Below are positions 55,501 through 61,500 of a DNA stretch of 64,000 nt, one piece after another. Made by a program: the position numbers. The DNA is from a virus. Taxonomy: Duplodnaviria > Heunggongvirae > Uroviricota > Caudoviricetes. How positions within the stretch are numbered: the stretch's first letter is position 1; each line of letters starts with the position of its first letter. The stretch lies in IMG/VR virus record IMGVR_UViG_648028025_000010; one strand, 5' to 3'.

Positions 55501-58500
55501 TGTTTTTCATGATGCGCTACCCCCTGAAACCCGGCGGAATTTCGGTATCCGGTTCAGAAATATGATTCACGCAACGCTGCGCGGGACCACGCCACAGTCG
55601 AATAACCAGTTCATCCCATTTCTCACGGAGTTTTTCCGGGCTCTTGATGTTTTTTATCCAGAACGGATCCCGTTGTGCCCGGCTGAACATTTCGCAAATT
55701 TGTCTGTGACTTCTTCCATCCAGCATCCGCATTGTGCGCACGTCATTGGCCCACGCCGTCCAGTTGGGCTCTTTCGGTCGCGTGATCTCACCATCGTCAC
55801 TGGCAGCCTGTTCGTACAGGTTTACAACCCGCCCCCAGATCCACTGCGCACATGTCAAATCCTCCCGGGTTCCCCACTGGCGTTTTTTCACGCTGAACAC
55901 AACTGCATCAGGATGGCGGGTTAAAAACGCCTGTTCAGCCGTCAACTCGTCCGGTTGCGAAGCGTCCGGACAAGAGAGTTTTTTATTCTCTGTTGTATTC
56001 TCTGTTGTATTCTCTGTAGGATCATCGGGCCATTTTGACCTGATGACATTGGGCCGTTTTGAACCAATGGAACGTTTCATTTTGACCTCTTCCATCGTGT
56101 CATTTTGACCTGATGGAGTGGCGCATTTTGACCCGATGGATTCGTTCACTTTGCCATCATCTAAAAGCGCGCTATCGTAGTTAATTGTGTAAAAATTAGT
56201 CATATCACGCTTCGATTTATTGAGCTTTTCGCTACGCAAAAGCCCCAGCGCTTTCAGACTTGCAAACGCACGCTTTAACGTTGACTCTGACCAGAACGGA
56301 AACTGTTCCAGCCATTGTTCCGTTGTGTTGTAAATCCAGCGAACGCCATCACATTCCATGCCGGAACTGGTATCCCTCAACCAGTAATGCAGTTGCTGCA
56401 ACACAATGGCTTCGTTTAAACCAATCTTCATCGCCAGCTGTGTGTTTATAACCAGCGGGCGTTCAGCAAAAAGAAGGCTCATAATTCCATCCGGCTTTTT
56501 GTTGGTACTGGTGACGATAGGCACGCTTGAAAGCGATTGCTTTTTCTATAAGCTCGTCTGTCTCACGTTCCACAACAGCTGGATCTGCAAAAAGCAGCCC
56601 GGACTCCACCACATCGCCATATTCTTTGTTTAACCCGGCAATCATGTACGTAATGCTTTTTCCGTCAGTAATTTCGCGGTACAACCTGAAATCACTAATC
56701 CGGATAGCCTCCATAATTGCCGGAATCAGCGCCGTGAATTTTTCACGCTTATCCCTGGTGTCGATAGCCTTCCAGCGTTCGAATATCTTCACCCGGTTAA
56801 CGCCCAGTGCCCGTTGATCAACCTCGCCATCATTAAACGTGATGCGTTGAACATCGATGTTCGGGCGTTCTTTCAGAGCCCAGAATGCTTCCGTGATTAA
56901 TATCGTCGCCTGTTCCTGTGTCATTCCTGGTCGGCACACCCAGGCATCCAGAGCCTCACAAACCTGTTCAGGGGTGATTTTCATTGTTCAACCGCCCCGC
57001 CCGCTTTGCCTTACGATATTCGTCATAAACTTTGGGGTCGTACTGAAGTTCCCCGCCGGATGCCTCTTGCAGGCGCATCGCGCGACCTTCAGGTACTAGC
57101 TCCCCTTTCCAGCTATAAAGCGAAGCCAAACGAATACCAGCAGCTTGTGCAAGTTTTGTTTTTGAACCGAAATACAAAAGTGCGTCAGTTTTAAGCATTT
57201 AAAGCACCTTGATTGTTAGCCATGACTAACAAAATAGATGTTAACAAAAACATAGTCAATAAGATTTAGCATTAGCTAACTATGGATACAAAAAATTTAA
57301 CCATTGGCGAACGCATTAGATATCGCCGAAAAAACCTCAAATACACCCAAAGGTCTCTTGCTAAAGTCCTGAAAATTTCTCACGTATCGGTTTCACAATG
57401 GGAGCGGGATGATAGCGAACCTACAGGAAAGAATCTTTTTGCCCTCAGCAAAGTACTGCAGTGCTCGCCAACATGGATTCTATTTGGCGATGAAGACAAG
57501 CAGCCATCACCACCTATTGAGGAGCCAGTTGCTCTATCCCCCAAAGAACATGAGCTCCTTGAGCTTTTTAATGCATTGCCTGAATCAGAACAGGATGCTC
57601 AGCTCACCGAGATGCGCGCCCGAGTAAAAAATTTCAACAAACTCTTTGAAGAGTTATTAAAAGCCCGTCAACGAACAAACAAAAGATAACGCAATCAATG
57701 CGTTATCTTTTTGGTTGCCCAAAATGTTAGTCATGGCAAACAAAAATACTTGACCAAATTGTTAGTCATGGCTAATCTTGCTTGCATCAAGACACCGCAC
57801 GGTGTTCTCAGCAAACAGTTCCGCTACCCCGGCGTTAAGGGGAAATGAGGTCAACATGGATACGCTCAATCTTGGCAACAACGAATCTCTGGTATGCGGA
57901 GTATTCTCCAACCTGGACGGCACGTTTACCGCGATGACGTATACCAGAAGCAAAACGTTTAAAACTGAAGCTGGCGCGCGTCGCTGGTTAGCCAGAAACA
58001 CTGACTGATGAGGTTGACGATGGAATTTAAAGATTTACCTCCTTCAATCCAGGAGATTGCAGCACACACACTTCGTCATCGTCTGAACGAACTTGAATTG
58101 GAATCGGTAACGAAAAAAGACACTGATAATATGGCTCGTAATGTGCGCGATGCGTTTACCGGATTGTATTTCTGTGCGTCTATAAATAAACACGACTCAG
58201 AGAGTGTGGCAAATAAAATTGCAGAAACGACAGCGCAAAACATCAATACGAAACCAACGGAAGAAGAAATTGATCAGTTTGCTCATGATGCTGGTTTAAA
58301 AAACAAGAAAGAAAAATCGCCATATGCGGGGAACATGTTTGTTTATGACAATCTCATCAGAATTCGTGGCGAAATTCCGGCGGAATACCTGGCAAGAGTC
58401 CATCAGGCATTGCTTAAAAATTTGGAAACAGAATTATTTGATGGCAACACTAACGGTTTCTTCATGGTATCAGGCCTTGAGAAAGACTGGGATGCAGAAA

Positions 58501-61500
58501 AACGCTGGAATGTTGCTACATGGTTATTCAGTAACAGAGCCGCTGCACTGGAAGCTTCGGCATGTATTTGCGGCCTGTTCTTAACAGACCACAAATATAA
58601 TCTGGATGTGTACAGTTATATTTACGCTGAACACGGTCCACTCTGGATTGACTGGTAATTATAAGGAAACACCAGCAGGGCCGCGGCGACCAACAGAACG
58701 ATTAAAATCAATAATGCCATTATAAAGGACATTATTTAATTTATCGTCGAATGCTGATTCTGTGAGCCTCAACTCTGAATGAGTTTTTAATAACCCTGAT
58801 TGCCTGAGTTGATTTACCAGGCATTCAATCTGTTTTTCAATAAGCGGATTTCTTTTTTTGTTTGGCATTTTATCCTCCATTGAGGTTCTGGGTTAAAAAT
58901 GGAGACCAACACGCTGTCACGTGTGGTCGTGCGCCGGACACGGATAAGAATCCGGTACTGACAGTTTACTGAAAGGATATTTCCCTGAAAAGTCAGTGCA
59001 TAACGCGAAAGCGTACGGCGAAGCTCTTTCCCTTAGAAGGCTTGTCGTTAGATTTCTTCGAACGTGCGCTTCCGGTTGTGGCACTCCGCGAAATGGCGCG
59101 GCGGTAAGTATGGCGGGGTTATTCCTTCCCCATTGAGGACACCGGGTTGTCAGGTTGACCATACGCTTAAGTGACAACCCCGCTGCAACGCCCTCTGTTA
59201 TCAATTTTCTGGTGACGTTTGGCGGTATCAGTTTTACTCCGTGGCTGCTCTGCCGCCCTTTTTAAAGTGAATTTTGTGATGCGGTGAATGCGGCTAAGCG
59301 CACGCGGAACAGTTAAAACCAAAAACAGTGTTATGGGTGGATTCTCTGTATCCGGCGTTAATTGTTAACTGGTTAACGTCACCTGGAGGCACCAGGCACT
59401 GCATCACAAAATTCATTGTTGAGGACGCGATAATGGAAACGTTATTACCAAACGTTAATACGTCTGAAGGTTGTTTTGATATTGGTGTTCTGCTCAGTAA
59501 CCGGGAGTTTACTGAAGATGCCATTAACATGAGGAAATATGAGCCTTATCTGCTCAATGATAATTCCATACTTTCCCGAATTGCTCTTCTTGAACTTGGT
59601 ATTTTCGGAGAACGTCAATGACTTCAGCATTTGCACTGATGATGACGGTTTTTCTTATAACGGGTGAATCACAGAATGTGATTACCGGAATTTATGCCAG
59701 TAAAGAATCCTGCCTCCAGGCAAGAGACGAGCAAAAAATTTCTGGTGAATGCCTCCCGGTAAAAAAAGTATCGCTGTACCTGAATAACGAAACACCGGCT
59801 GGATAACCCTCCAGCCATATTAACACCATACCAACGGATTAAAAATGCCAGCAATGGCAGGGATTTGTTCACCCTTAAATCTGTAATGAGGTTTATCAAT
59901 GAGCACTGATAAAGAAGAATTTGCGCTATATTGCGAAGCAAAAAATGACAAAGTCAGAAAACGTCTGGGAATTAAAGGTGGTTTTTACTGGACTACAGCA
60001 AAAAAATTATCTGTTGCCATCTCCCGCTGCATTACCGCAATGGATGACAACGATTATGATGAAGACGACTTTAAAAAACCCGTTCGCGTCCATTTACCCG
60101 TTGTGAATGACCTTCCACCTGAAGGCGTGTTTGATACCGAATTCTGCAACCGATACGAAAAAGGCGGGGAAGATGGCATTACAATGGTATTTATCGCGCC
60201 CTCTCCCTCCGTGCAGGAGAAACCAGCCAGTACTGACAATACCAACGTCAACGGCGAAGACATGACGGAGATTGAGGAGAATATGCTCCTGCCGGTTTCT
60301 GGTCAGGAGCTGCCCATTCGCTGGCTTGCGCAACACGGCAGCGAAAAACCAGTAACGCACGTTGCACGGGAAGAACTTCAGGCATTACATATAGCACGGG
60401 CGGAAGAACTGCCGGCTGTTACTGCCCTGGCCATTTCTCACAAAACAAAGCTGCTCGACCCGCTGGAGATTCGCGACCTTCACAAACTGGTACGCGACAC
60501 TGACAAAGTTTTCCCTAATCCCGGTAATTCAGACCTGGGACTGATAACTGCTTTTTTCGAGGCATACCTGGACGCTGACTACACTGATCGGGGTCTGCTG
60601 ACAAAAGAGTGGATGAAAGGAAATCGTGTTTCGCGTATCACCCGTACGGCTTCCGGTGCAAATGCCGGTGGCGGGAACAAAACCGATCGCAATCCGAATT
60701 TAGTACACACCTTCGATACGCTGGATGTGGAGATTGCAGCAGCCACACTTCCGATGGATTTTAATATTTATGAAATTCCGGGCAGCGTTTATCGTCGCGC
60801 AAAAGAAATCGTCCTGAAAAGAGAAAGTCCGTTCAAAGAATGGTCCGCAGCACTTCGCGCAACCCCGGGTATTCTGGACTATTCCCGCGCCGCTATTTTT
60901 GCACTTATCCGGAGCGCTCACCCTGAGTTTTATCACTACCCGGGACGCCTTCAGGGGTATATCAACGCCTACTTAACGGAGACTGATCACGAGAACCCCA
61001 GCAAGGAAACTCTCACTGCTGCACGACATACACCGGAAAAAGATATCCTGGAAGAAGTTAACCGCGAACTGTCTGCTAAGCAGGAAACAGAAGAAGAAGA
61101 AAATGATGAAGAAAAACCGCAACCATCTTGCGCAATGGCAGATGAACAGGCAACGGCTGAAACAGTGGAACCGGATGCAACTGAACATCATCAGGACACG
61201 CAGCCGCTGGATGCTCAGTCACAGGTAAATTCTGTTGATGCGAAATATCAGAAACTGCGGGCAGAACTCCATGAAGCCCGGAAAAACATTCCGCCCCCAA
61301 ACCCTGTCGATGCAGACAAATTACTGGCTGCCTCTCGCGGAGAATTTGTTGAAGGGATTAGCGACCCGAATGATCCGAAATGGATTAAGGGGATCCAGAC
61401 CCGCGATTCTGTGTACCAGAACCAGCAAGAAACGGAACAGAACGACCAGAAAGCGGAACAAAACAGCCCAAATGCGTTACAAAACGAGCCAGAAACGAAA

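What the first reader, a model, noticed from the sequence alone, without database searches (positions are those of the whole stretch)
58008..58880. Variable cargo between ydfA and dicF in the dicB operon: unknown 212-aa protein with convergent small ORF
In prophage B the slot between ydfA and the dicF precursor holds a 212-216-aa ORF translationally coupled to ydfA plus a convergent ~70-aa ORF. In prophage A the same slot (6801-7376) holds a different ORF whose 3' half is overlapped antisense by a 106-aa ORF with three hydrophobic segments (7038-7358). Genes here are under DicA control and are released on derepression, a typical place for division-modulating or exclusion functions.
Basis: partly seen in the sequence, partly recalled or inferred. 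Interest (0 to 1): 0.45.

Follow-up and report, generated by a model that had tools for sequence, protein, structure and literature searches.

The report
Paired unknown genes in prophage hotspot
Between ydfA and the DicF small-RNA gene of an E. coli prophage sit two real but uncharacterised genes facing each other, and they turn out to be one of at least a dozen interchangeable cassettes at a previously undescribed swap-in site.

Summary
Window 58020-58658 (+) encodes a 212-aa protein, and 58659-58868 (-) encodes a convergent 69-aa protein. Their stop codons abut. They lie between ydfA and dicF (Rfam, 75 bits) in a Qin-like prophage of an STEC chromosome.

Both are genuine genes. dN/dS is 0.12-0.27, and the small ORF is intact in 21 of 22 nucleotide variants. 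Neither matches Pfam, NCBIfam, PADLOC, PDB or YdfB/YdfC.

The 212-aa protein has three parts: a shuffled N-terminal two-helix module beginning MEFKDLP, a linker, and a conserved alpha/beta C-domain. The C-domain and the 69-aa gene recur together, still convergent, in two deeper lineages (27-31% C-domain identity) in prophages with a P2-like int-C-cox region.

An anchor next to the small gene's start marks a hotspot. In 116 prophage loci, 55 carry a convergent small ORF at a fixed 54-65 nt, and these ORFs fall into at least 14 unrelated families. In 95 unique loci these mostly track the forward protein's C-terminus but not its N-module.

My best reading, which is inferred, is a cognate early-lytic/separately-transcribed protein pair. 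Function is unknown. Simple linkage of two independent morons is the main rival. Interest is moderate, and I class it as a new variant of the prophage accessory-gene hotspot.

The parts
57856..58008 (+). ydfA (DUF1391), the gene upstream of the cassette. Its stop overlaps the alternative ATG of the 216-aa reading.
   Evidence: Pfam PF07151, 97.8 bits; PGAP annotation; sequence.
58020..58658 (+). Forward gene for a 212-aa acidic protein (pI 5.2). PGAP calls it hypothetical protein WP_000394548; it belongs to phrog_2151. An alternative start at 58008 gives 216 aa.
   Evidence: GAGG Shine-Dalgarno at 58011-58014. Relatives lacking the upstream ATG. pI.
58020..58184 (+). N-terminal 'MEFKDLP...RNVRDAFTGLY' module (residues 1-55, two predicted helices). 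It is shared with about 40 protein clusters that have unrelated C-termini. It is polymorphic and is reshuffled relative to the C-domain.
   Evidence: PHROG partial hits; Stx2-phage and PPompW hits; representative search; contingency table; dN/dS 0.3-0.7; helices 8-24 and 32-47 at low confidence.
58185..58310 (+). Low-complexity linker rich in Glu/Lys/Thr (residues 56-97), with indels between relatives.
   Evidence: Alignment A1; pLDDT below 50.
58311..58655 (+). Conserved C-terminal alpha/beta sandwich domain (residues 98-212; beta-beta-alpha-beta-beta-alpha-beta). Its motifs PYxxNMFVYDxLIxIxGxIPxxY, VFDGxxNGxF and AxWxFS define the family.
58659..58868 (-). Convergent gene for a 69-aa basic protein (pI 9.7). 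PGAP calls it hypothetical protein WP_001133037; it belongs to phrog_4274. It has a conserved core IEKQIEC..QL..SGLLK..SEL and a conserved C-terminal tail GRRGPAGxxL. An alternative start at 58880 gives 73 aa.
   Evidence: dN/dS 0.12-0.27. Homologues beside the C-domain relatives in Salmonella-type loci.
58853..58859 (-). A7 homopolymer in codons 4-6 of the small gene. A6 alleles, which are frameshifted, occur in 8 of the fetched prophage loci.
58874..58878 (-). Shine-Dalgarno GGAGG of the small gene, 5 nt before the ATG at 58868. It lies in the ATGGAG arm of an inverted repeat (CTCCAT 58875-58880 / ATGGAG 58899-58904 on the + strand).
   Evidence: Sequence; conserved across cassette types; the hairpin is predicted only on the + strand RNA.
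58904..58928 (.). Hairpin 2 (GACCAACACG-CTGTCA-CGTGTGGTC). The stem sequence is replaced by unrelated but still complementary arms in other locus types, and the element is flipped in some loci.
58929..58956 (.). Conserved anchor GTGCGCCGGACACGGATAA, including hairpin 3 (GCCGGA-12 nt-TCCGGT). It forms the right-hand boundary of the variable cassette. Small ORFs start 54-65 nt from it.
58957..59206 (+). Conserved structured leader of the dicF precursor. It is context rather than part of the cassette.
59207..59258 (+). DicF sRNA gene (context).
   Evidence: Rfam RF00039, 75 bits, E = 6e-16.

Best explanation
WHAT IS SHOWN
- The region holds a two-gene accessory cassette in a fixed-boundary recombination hotspot of the early-left (dicBF) operon of a Qin-like lambdoid prophage.
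- The forward gene sits directly after ydfA in the operon that DicA is known to repress in K-12.
- It encodes a modular acidic protein: a reshuffled two-helix N-module, a linker, and a family-specific alpha/beta C-domain.
- The opposite strand encodes a 69-aa basic protein with its own strong Shine-Dalgarno sequence.
- Both genes are under purifying selection.
- The C-domain gene and the small gene have stayed together, tail to tail, in three lineages. This holds even where the forward protein has a different N-terminus and the prophage has a P2-like int-C-cox immunity region.

WHAT IS INFERRED
- The two products are a cognate, probably physically interacting, pair with opposite expression logic.
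- The small basic protein would be transcribed from its own promoter in the conserved hairpin/anchor region. It would therefore be made independently of DicA derepression, most likely in the lysogen, like a moron.
- The 212-aa protein would be made only when DicA repression is lifted.
- Because no terminator separates the two genes, derepressed operon transcription towards dicF/dicB would run antisense through the small gene. Transcription of the small gene would likewise run antisense into the 3' end of the forward gene, giving mutual interference.
- The most likely biological role is a prophage-benefit function such as superinfection exclusion, inter-prophage competition or host modulation. 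One partner would modulate or neutralise the other on induction.
- The biochemical activity is unknown.
For: - Real genes: dN/dS; frame open in all 22 variants, start lost in one; families restricted to Escherichia and Salmonella.
- Pairing: 56 of 56 unique E. coli loci that have both an intact C-domain gene and a small ORF of at least 50 aa carry the 69-aa family.
- Pairing at depth: Salmonella diarizonae-type relatives (C-domain 27-31% identical) have a homologous convergent small ORF (55% identical to the window protein) that overlaps their 3' end by 53 nt.
- Pairing in a third lineage: a relative carrying an inserted HTH_3 domain (P0140) also has such an ORF.
- In all three lineages the forward protein is acidic (pI 4.6-5.6) and the small one is neutral to basic (pI 7.9-9.9).
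- The small protein's C-terminal tail GRRGPAGxxL is conserved whether the genes abut, overlap by 11 nt or overlap by 53 nt. The constraint is therefore on the small protein itself.
- Hotspot and fixed geometry.
- N-module shuffling against cassette linkage. Three different N-module alleles sit on near-identical C-domains (dS 0.013).
- No intrinsic terminator is predicted between the two genes.
- Operon context and DicA control in K-12: PMC5069750.
- The slot position is the same in heteroimmune prophages whose DicA is 26-97% identical.
Against: - No promoter for the small gene was found by the consensus scan. The only hit overlaps its start codon, so lysogen expression is an assumption.
- No interaction test was possible.
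- Co-variation could be mere linkage, because recombination is confined to the conserved flanks.
- Two sister cassette types show the small ORF exchanged while most of the forward protein is kept (C2 with S3 or S11; C4 with S6 or S8).
- A clade has the small gene internally deleted yet keeps an intact 211-aa forward gene (L068, L078, L082; protein clusters such as P0063 with 110 members). The pair is therefore not obligatory.
- The reverse decay also exists, with frameshifted forward genes (L081, L149).
- There is no match to any defence, toxin, antitoxin or immunity family.
- The cassette is absent from 50,697 sequenced phage records. It is known only from prophages, which may be defective.
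Confidence: 0.4

Rival explanations
1. Two independent accessory genes (morons) travel together only because they lie between the same two conserved recombination handles, the N-module on the left and the anchor/leader on the right. They have no functional interplay. The forward protein's C-terminus simply changes with whatever was inserted.
For: - Recombination is demonstrably confined to the flanks.
- In sister cassettes the small ORF can be swapped behind a largely unchanged forward protein (C2/S3 against C2/S11; C4/S6 against C4/S8).
- Variants with the small gene deleted keep an intact forward gene.
- In the Salmonella-type loci the right-hand anchor and leader are conserved too, so positional linkage persists there.
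Against: - The pair has survived divergence to 27-31% identity (C-domain) and about 37-55% identity (small ORF).
- It has also survived replacement of the forward N-terminus and transfer into a different immunity background, all within a slot that otherwise turns over quickly.
- Charge complementarity is consistent in all three lineages.
Confidence: 0.3
2. A toxin-antitoxin-like or kil/anti-kil module. One product (the C-domain protein or the small basic protein) is growth-inhibitory. The other neutralises it, protecting the lysogen from leaky expression.
For: - A small basic partner paired with an acidic partner.
- A conserved C-terminal tail that could serve as a degradation or docking signal (this is inference).
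- A sister cassette's small ORF reaches the Pfam GhoS gathering score (21.2 against 21 bits). GhoS is the type V antitoxin RNase.
- Neighbouring operon products (DicF, DicB, YdfD) are toxic (PMC5069750).
Against: - There are no toxin or antitoxin domain hits.
- The convergent orientation is atypical for type II systems.
- Either gene can be lost while the other stays intact.
- The GhoS-like cassette has no GhoT-like partner.
Confidence: 0.12
3. What matters is convergent transcription rather than the small protein. On this reading, any promoter-bearing insert upstream of the dicF leader acts as a transcriptional roadblock or antisense insulator that keeps the toxic dicF-dicB genes silent in the lysogen, and the ORF content is largely incidental.
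For: - At least 14 unrelated small ORF families start at the same position relative to the anchor.
- There is no terminator between the convergent genes.
- A conserved structured region lies immediately upstream.
Against: - The 69-aa ORF is under purifying selection at the protein level and is conserved as a protein at about 37-55% identity.
- 37% of anchor loci (the ydfC type, as in K-12) have no convergent ORF at all yet keep dicF.
Confidence: 0.1
4. The real product on the minus strand is the alternative-frame hydrophobic 36-aa peptide (58622-58732, MSFIMALLILIVLLVAAALLVF...). It would be a type I-toxin-like membrane peptide, and the 69-aa frame would be spurious.
For: A strikingly hydrophobic ORF lies within the 3' part of the small gene.
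Against: - It is interrupted by stop codons in 2 of 16 E. coli variants.
- It is riddled with stops in all three Salmonella-type homologues.
- The 69-aa frame stays open throughout and is conserved as protein.
Confidence: 0.02

Closest known systems
ydfB/ydfC of the E. coli K-12 Qin dicBF operon (ydfA-ydfB-ydfC-dicF-dicB-ydfD)
   Same: They occupy the same slot: after ydfA, before the dicF leader, downstream of dicA. They are also small proteins of unknown function (PMC5069750).
   Different: There is no sequence similarity. ydfC-type loci carry no convergent ORF. Here the slot holds a 212-aa modular protein plus an opposite-strand gene.
Prophage morons and accessory-gene hotspots (lambdoid morons; P2/P4 defence hotspots). 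This comparison rests on my own knowledge of that literature.
   Same: Variable, unrelated small genes sit at a fixed site between conserved phage sequences. They are often oriented against the surrounding lytic operon and expressed from their own signals. The products are mostly of unknown function.
   Different: This particular hotspot, inside the dicBF early-left operon next to the dicF leader, was not found described in my literature searches. Insertions come as a forward C-terminal part plus a convergent gene. No cargo matches a known defence system.
Polymorphic toxin-immunity cassettes (CdiA-CT/CdiI, Rhs-CT/RhsI, colicin/immunity)
   Same: A conserved N-terminal part is joined to a swappable C-terminal domain, and that domain is exchanged together with a small adjacent gene. 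N-terminal alleles and C-terminal types recombine freely.
   Different: No toxin, secretion or delivery domain is recognisable. The small gene is convergent rather than co-directional. The proteins look cytoplasmic and are encoded in a phage early operon. Co-variation is imperfect in sister cassettes.
Prp/TM1457 (DUF464) ribosomal-processing cysteine protease fold, and ACT/eIF1-like alpha/beta sandwiches
   Same: These are the best Foldseek hits of the C-domain model (1s12 at E = 4.5e-3; 7jvs; BFVD 'cysteine protease/YsxB-like' at E = 6e-4). The beta-beta-alpha-beta-beta-alpha-beta topology is the same.
GhoS (type V antitoxin endoribonuclease). This applies to a sister cassette, not to the window's genes.
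   Same: A 94-aa convergent ORF at the same position in locus L177 reaches the Pfam GhoS threshold. This shows that TA-type cargo can occupy the site.
   Different: The window's 69-aa protein has no similarity to it. No GhoT-like partner is found nearby.

Membership tests
YdfB / YdfC (K-12 occupants of the slot) | Sequence similarity to YdfB (42 aa) or YdfC (72 aa) | tested here: not met
   BLASTP of both products against YdfC and against the YdfB-derived prophage A ORF gave only noise. NCBIfam and Pfam gave no hit.
Known anti-phage defence systems (PADLOC-DB 2.0) | An HMM match of either protein to a defence component | tested here: not met
   No PADLOC hit at E up to 0.1 for either protein, and no meaningful hit for ten sister small ORFs.
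Type II toxin-antitoxin module | A recognisable toxin or antitoxin domain | tested here: not met
   No Pfam, NCBIfam or PADLOC family.
Type II toxin-antitoxin module | A co-directional, co-transcribed two-gene operon | tested here: not met
   The genes are convergent with abutting stops.
Type II toxin-antitoxin module | Growth inhibition by one partner that is relieved by the other | not testable with these tools
   This needs expression experiments.
Polymorphic toxin-immunity cassette | A conserved N-terminal region with a variable C-terminal domain that is exchanged together with an adjacent small gene | tested here: met
   The contingency of N alleles, C types and small-ORF families across 95 unique loci, and near-identical C-domains on three different N alleles.
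Polymorphic toxin-immunity cassette | A recognisable toxin domain plus a secretion or delivery domain | tested here: not met
   No Pfam hit, only generic fold matches, and no signal or transmembrane features seen in the sequence.
Polymorphic toxin-immunity cassette | An immunity gene immediately downstream on the same strand | tested here: not met
   The small gene is on the opposite strand.
Prp / DUF464 cysteine protease | A conserved catalytic His-Cys dyad | tested here: not met
   The invariant columns of alignment A4 contain no His or Cys. Fold similarity is weak, with TM about 0.4.
Moron (autonomously expressed prophage accessory gene) | Its own promoter and expression in the lysogen | tested here: inconclusive
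   The consensus scan found only a promoter-like site overlapping the start codon. A weak -10/-35 candidate lies upstream of hairpin 3. No expression data were available.
Moron (autonomously expressed prophage accessory gene) | Presence or absence polymorphism at a fixed site between conserved phage sequences | tested here: met
   In 116 anchor loci, 55 carry a convergent ORF from at least 14 families, 43 are ydfC-type without one, and 18 are other types without one.
dicBF operon of Qin-like prophages (context) | DicA/DicC-type immunity genes, ydfA, DicF RNA, dicB and ydfD in order | tested here: met
   PGAP annotation of the identical region, Rfam DicF at 75 bits, and Pfam DUF1391.

The most novel reading that the evidence does not exclude
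The slot is a previously unrecognised polymorphic effector/partner system of enterobacterial temperate phages. A conserved 'carrier' N-module presents interchangeable C-terminal effector domains. Each effector is matched to a cognate small protein encoded convergently and expressed in the lysogen. Together they would decide the outcome of superinfection or of competition among the many co-resident lambdoid prophages of EHEC. They may also gate read-through into DicF/DicB.
Probability: 0.15. Interest if true: 0.8.

Novelty: new variant of a known kind. Interest (0 to 1): 0.5.

Why it matters
The cassette is in 599 of 5,426 complete E. coli genomes, mainly O157:H7, O26, O111 and O103 STEC. It is annotated 'hypothetical protein (x2)' in every listed record.

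It lies directly upstream of DicF and DicB. These regulators affect cell division, phage resistance and, by published accounts, EHEC virulence.

The work defines three things that can be tested:
- the hotspot and its fixed boundaries;
- at least 14 families of convergent small proteins;
- a modular forward-protein architecture.

These give a concrete set of candidates for new lysogenic-conversion, exclusion or anti-defence functions. They also give a possible cis-acting control of dicF/dicB expression. Even the minimal result is a usable annotation improvement: two real genes forming a conserved pair.

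Tried and rejected
SEARCHES THAT FOUND NOTHING USEFUL
1. Pfam, NCBIfam, PADLOC and PDB sequence searches of both proteins gave nothing significant.
2. Exhaustive HMMER against 1.84 billion representatives found only 53 hits. Nearly all were to the N-module alone, and only two were distant C-domain relatives.
3. AF2 of the full 212-aa protein was poor (pLDDT 50.6). Restricting to the C-domain and adding the Salmonella relatives gave pLDDT 80.6.
4. Fold searches then returned only generic sandwiches. afdb50 was unavailable.
5. tblastn against 50,697 phage records found only the N-module, in Stx2 and PPompW phages. 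The C-domain and the 69-aa protein were absent.
6. Six literature searches on the dicBF slot, protein names and accessions found no description of these genes or of the hotspot.

IDEAS TESTED AND REJECTED
7. The alternative-frame hydrophobic peptide as the true gene: rejected.
8. A Shine-Dalgarno-sequestering hairpin in the small gene's mRNA: not supported by the minus-strand minimum-free-energy fold, so it is not claimed.
9. A Prp-like protease: rejected because there is no catalytic dyad.
10. A GhoT partner for the GhoS-like sister cassette: none found.

TESTS THAT WERE UNINFORMATIVE
11. Selection on the C-domain after loss of the small gene could not be judged. The deletion clade is too young (dS 0.013).

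Full report
PROVENANCE AND CONTEXT

The 2.5-kb stretch 57200-59700 is 100% identical to the chromosomes of O26 and related STEC strains, for example NZ_CP028126. PGAP annotates the following genes in order there:
- dicC on the minus strand;
- a DicA-type helix-turn-helix (HTH) repressor (57282-57689);
- a DUF1391 protein, which is ydfA (57856-58008);
- a hypothetical protein (58020-58658);
- a hypothetical protein on the opposite strand (58659-58868);
- dicB (59433-59621);
- a DUF1482 protein, which is ydfD;
- a 820-aa exonuclease, then xis and int.

Rfam places DicF at 59207-59258 with 75 bits against a gathering score of 48. This is therefore the early-left 'dicBF' operon of a Qin-like lambdoid prophage. 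In K-12 that operon is repressed by DicA, and the slot between ydfA and the long dicF leader is occupied by ydfB and ydfC (PMC5069750).

The forward ORF can start at 58008, where the ATG overlaps the ydfA stop as TGATG, giving 216 aa. It can also start at 58020, giving 212 aa, with a GAGG Shine-Dalgarno 6 nt upstream. Relatives that lack the upstream ATG begin at MEFKDLP, so the 212-aa form is the conserved one. Either start is compatible with coupling to ydfA.

The convergent ORF has a strong GGAGG 5 nt before the ATG at 58868, giving 69 aa. The stop codons of the two genes abut exactly.

BOTH ORFS ARE REAL GENES

The 69-aa frame is open in all 22 distinct nucleotide variants recovered from prophage contigs. 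In one of these variants, carried by 8 loci, a change from A7 to A6 removes the start by frameshift.

Nei-Gojobori dN/dS between diverged E. coli alleles is as follows:

| Region | dN/dS | dS |
|---|---|---|
| C-terminal domain of the forward protein | 0.12-0.18 | up to 0.65 |
| Small ORF | 0.12-0.27 | not tabulated |
| N-terminal 55 residues | 0.3-0.7 | not tabulated |

An eye-catching hydrophobic 36-aa ORF lies in another frame of the minus strand (58622-58732). It is broken by stops in two E. coli variants and in all distant homologues, so I dismiss it.

NO KNOWN FAMILY

Neither protein hits Pfam, NCBIfam, PADLOC or PDB sequences. Neither resembles YdfB or YdfC. PHROGs knows both only as unknown-function families, phrog_2151 and phrog_4274.

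Homologues are confined to Escherichia and Salmonella, and all are labelled hypothetical or 'Ybl81'. The cassette occurs in 599 of 5,426 complete E. coli genomes, mostly O157:H7, O26, O111 and O103, and is 'hypothetical protein (x2)' in every listed record. It is absent from 50,697 sequenced phage records.

ARCHITECTURE OF THE 212-AA PROTEIN

Alignment and PHROG partial hits show three parts.

- N-module (residues 1-55). It runs MEFKDLP...RNVRDAFTGLY and has two predicted helices. It is shared with about 40 clusters that carry unrelated C-termini. These include proteins of Stx2 phages and of the O157 PPompW prophage.
- Linker. It is low-complexity and varies by indels.
- C-domain (residues 98-212). 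It is strongly conserved.

After the distant relatives were added to the alignment, AlphaFold gave a confident beta-beta-alpha-beta-beta-alpha-beta sandwich (pLDDT 80.6, pTM 0.74). Fold searches found only generic matches:
- Foldseek's best hits were TM1457 and Prp, with TM about 0.4.

No His or Cys is invariant in the family, so a Prp-type protease is excluded.

A CONSERVED GENE PAIR

Exhaustive searching found only two kinds of distant C-domain relative.

| Relative | Length | Forward-protein features | Convergent small ORF | Overlap of the two genes |
|---|---|---|---|---|
| Salmonella (diarizonae) proteins such as P0152 | about 206-220 aa | a different N-terminus | 64-69 aa | 53 nt |
| P0140 | 286 aa | as above, plus an inserted HTH_3 domain | 64 aa | 11 nt |

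Both kinds sit in prophages whose integrase-proximal region is P2-like: int, C repressor, cox, then this gene. Both are followed by a convergent small ORF that is clearly homologous to the window's 69-aa protein. The alignment shows a shared core, xIEKQIECxxxQLxxSGLLKxxSELxxxxxAFxxKL, and a shared C-terminal tail, GRRGPAGxxL.

The tail is conserved whether the two genes abut, overlap by 11 nt or overlap by 53 nt. The constraint is therefore on the small protein itself.

In all three lineages the forward protein is acidic (pI 4.6-5.6) and the small one is neutral to basic (pI 7.9-9.9).

A HOTSPOT WITH FIXED BOUNDARIES

Directly upstream of the small gene's start lie two hairpins and a conserved anchor, GTGCGCCGGACACGGATAA (58929-47). 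These lead into the conserved dicF leader.

I scanned IMG/VR for the anchor and examined 116 loci with enough flank:
- 43 are ydfC-type, as in K-12, with no convergent ORF.
- 18 are other types without a convergent ORF.
- 55 carry a convergent small ORF with a Shine-Dalgarno sequence, starting 54-65 nt from the anchor.

The convergent ORFs fall into at least 14 unrelated families of 57-101 aa. All that were tested are unknown-function PHROGs, and none matches a known defence component. One reaches the Pfam GhoS threshold.

Across 95 unique loci, the type of the forward protein's C-terminus tracks the small-ORF family almost one to one. N-module alleles are shuffled among C types. For example, near-identical C-domains (dS 0.013) sit on three different N alleles.

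The exchangeable unit is therefore the C-terminal part plus the convergent gene. It is bounded on the left by the N-module and on the right by the anchor.

The E. coli cassette always occupies the same slot, in heteroimmune prophages whose DicA is 26-97% identical. It occurs with DicF or with other sRNA-like hairpins downstream.

INTERPRETATION

Shown:
- two real, co-conserved, convergent genes;
- a modular forward protein;
- a fixed-boundary hotspot.

Inferred:
- The forward gene is expressed with ydfA only on DicA derepression.
- The small gene has its own promoter in the conserved upstream region and is expressed independently, probably in the lysogen.
- The two proteins are cognate partners.
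- Convergent transcription without an intervening terminator adds mutual interference.

The promoter is not established. The consensus scan found only a site that overlaps the start codon, and the candidate upstream of hairpin 3 is weak.

COUNTER-EVIDENCE TO OBLIGATE PAIRING

- The small gene is deleted in one clade that keeps an intact forward gene.
- Forward genes are frameshifted beside intact or extended small genes in L081 and L149.
- In two sister cassette types the small ORF has been exchanged independently of most of the forward protein.

The main rival is therefore plain linkage of two independent morons. TA-like and pure transcriptional-insulator readings are less likely but not excluded.

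PROPHAGE A (6801-7376)

PGAP calls only a 34-codon ydfB pseudogene here. In the 321-nt overlap, 11 substitutions among 80 loci split as follows:

| Frame | Synonymous | Non-synonymous | ORF integrity |
|---|---|---|---|
| Antisense 106-aa, three-segment membrane ORF | 6 | 5 | intact in all 11 variants |
| Forward 191-aa frame | 2 | 9, including 1 nonsense | premature stops in 2 of 20 variants |

The counts are small. They favour the convergent membrane protein as the functional gene, which fits the general 'convergent small gene next to the dicF leader' pattern.

NOVELTY AND SCORE

Prophage accessory hotspots and morons are a known kind. This particular hotspot, its paired geometry and these two families were not found described in my searches.

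Function remains unknown, so interest is moderate at 0.5. It would be much higher if the cassettes prove to be cognate effector/partner pairs that govern superinfection or prophage competition.

Noticed in passing
window 58957-59206 (also about 7440-7636); L084 5860-6160; L086; L208 5100-5420; L072: The roughly 250-nt dicF leader has conserved boxes: ACGAAAGCGCAC, GTGCGCTTCCGGTTGTGGC and GGCGGTAAGTATGGCGGGG...GGGTTGTCAGGTTGACCATACGC. These are also conserved in Salmonella-type prophages with a P2-like int-C-cox region and in E. coli loci without DicF. There the leader ends in different stem-loop plus U-run elements, which look like alternative sRNAs. Rfam has no family for the leader or for these alternatives.
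   Followed up: partly
window 58853-58859 (minus-strand codons 4-6 of the 69-aa gene): This is an A7 homopolymer. Eight of the fetched prophage loci have A6, which frameshifts the small gene after codon 5. This could be slippage-prone on/off variation, decay or assembly error.
   Followed up: partly
L068, L078, L082 (protein clusters P0046, P0063, P0104, P0109): A single recent internal deletion removes most of the 69-aa gene but keeps its Shine-Dalgarno sequence. The forward protein then ends ...WIDWFKG (211 aa). This deleted cassette has already recombined onto three different N-module alleles.
   Followed up: yes
window 7038-7358 (-) against 6801-7376 (+), prophage A: The antisense 106-aa ORF with three hydrophobic segments is intact in all variants and shows 6 synonymous against 5 non-synonymous changes. 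The overlapping forward frame is a ydfB N-terminus run-on that PGAP calls a pseudogene. It shows 2 synonymous against 9 non-synonymous changes, including a nonsense change.
   Followed up: partly
L177 (anchor locus); 94-aa ORF MAKFTVRIELRD...: A sister cassette's convergent ORF reaches the Pfam GhoS (type V antitoxin RNase) gathering score, 21.2 against 21 bits. It shares phrog_8894 with a 101-aa ORF of another cassette. No GhoT-like partner is found nearby.
   Followed up: partly
L097, L089, L123, L142, L177 forward proteins: A second shuffled module, NE(T/K)ELKHIIALLLEDA...PNAGTEARI, occurs either as the N-terminus or internally in forward proteins of the slot. These proteins are therefore mosaics of several short helical modules.
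   Followed up: no
window 58904-58928; L081, L149: Hairpin 2 beside the anchor is present in reverse-complement orientation in some loci. In other locus types it is replaced by unrelated but still self-complementary arms. This suggests a structure-constrained, flippable palindromic element.
   Followed up: partly
window 57725-57737 and 57760-57772: A direct repeat, TGTTAGTCATGGC, occurs twice between the dicA stop and ydfA. It flanks and overlaps a TTGACC-17 nt-TAATCT promoter-like arrangement. These are candidate DicA operators of the operon promoter. I read this from the sequence, and the consensus scan did not call it.
   Followed up: no
window 59256-59465: There is a sub-threshold Rfam match to STnc100 (34.7 against 47 bits, E = 4.6e-5) in the dicF-dicB spacer.
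   Followed up: no
L087 6535-7379; L086 7582-7669: IsrK and C4 antisense RNA genes (Rfam, above gathering score) lie a few kb downstream in some loci that share the anchor. This indicates P4/P2-type immunity RNAs in the same mosaic prophages.
   Followed up: no
window about 6400-7700 against 57200-59700, compared with NZ_CP028126: In strain RM10386 the two dicBF-type prophage regions lie about 49 kb apart in the opposite order to the window. The window therefore comes from a differently arranged strain or a rearranged region.
   Followed up: no
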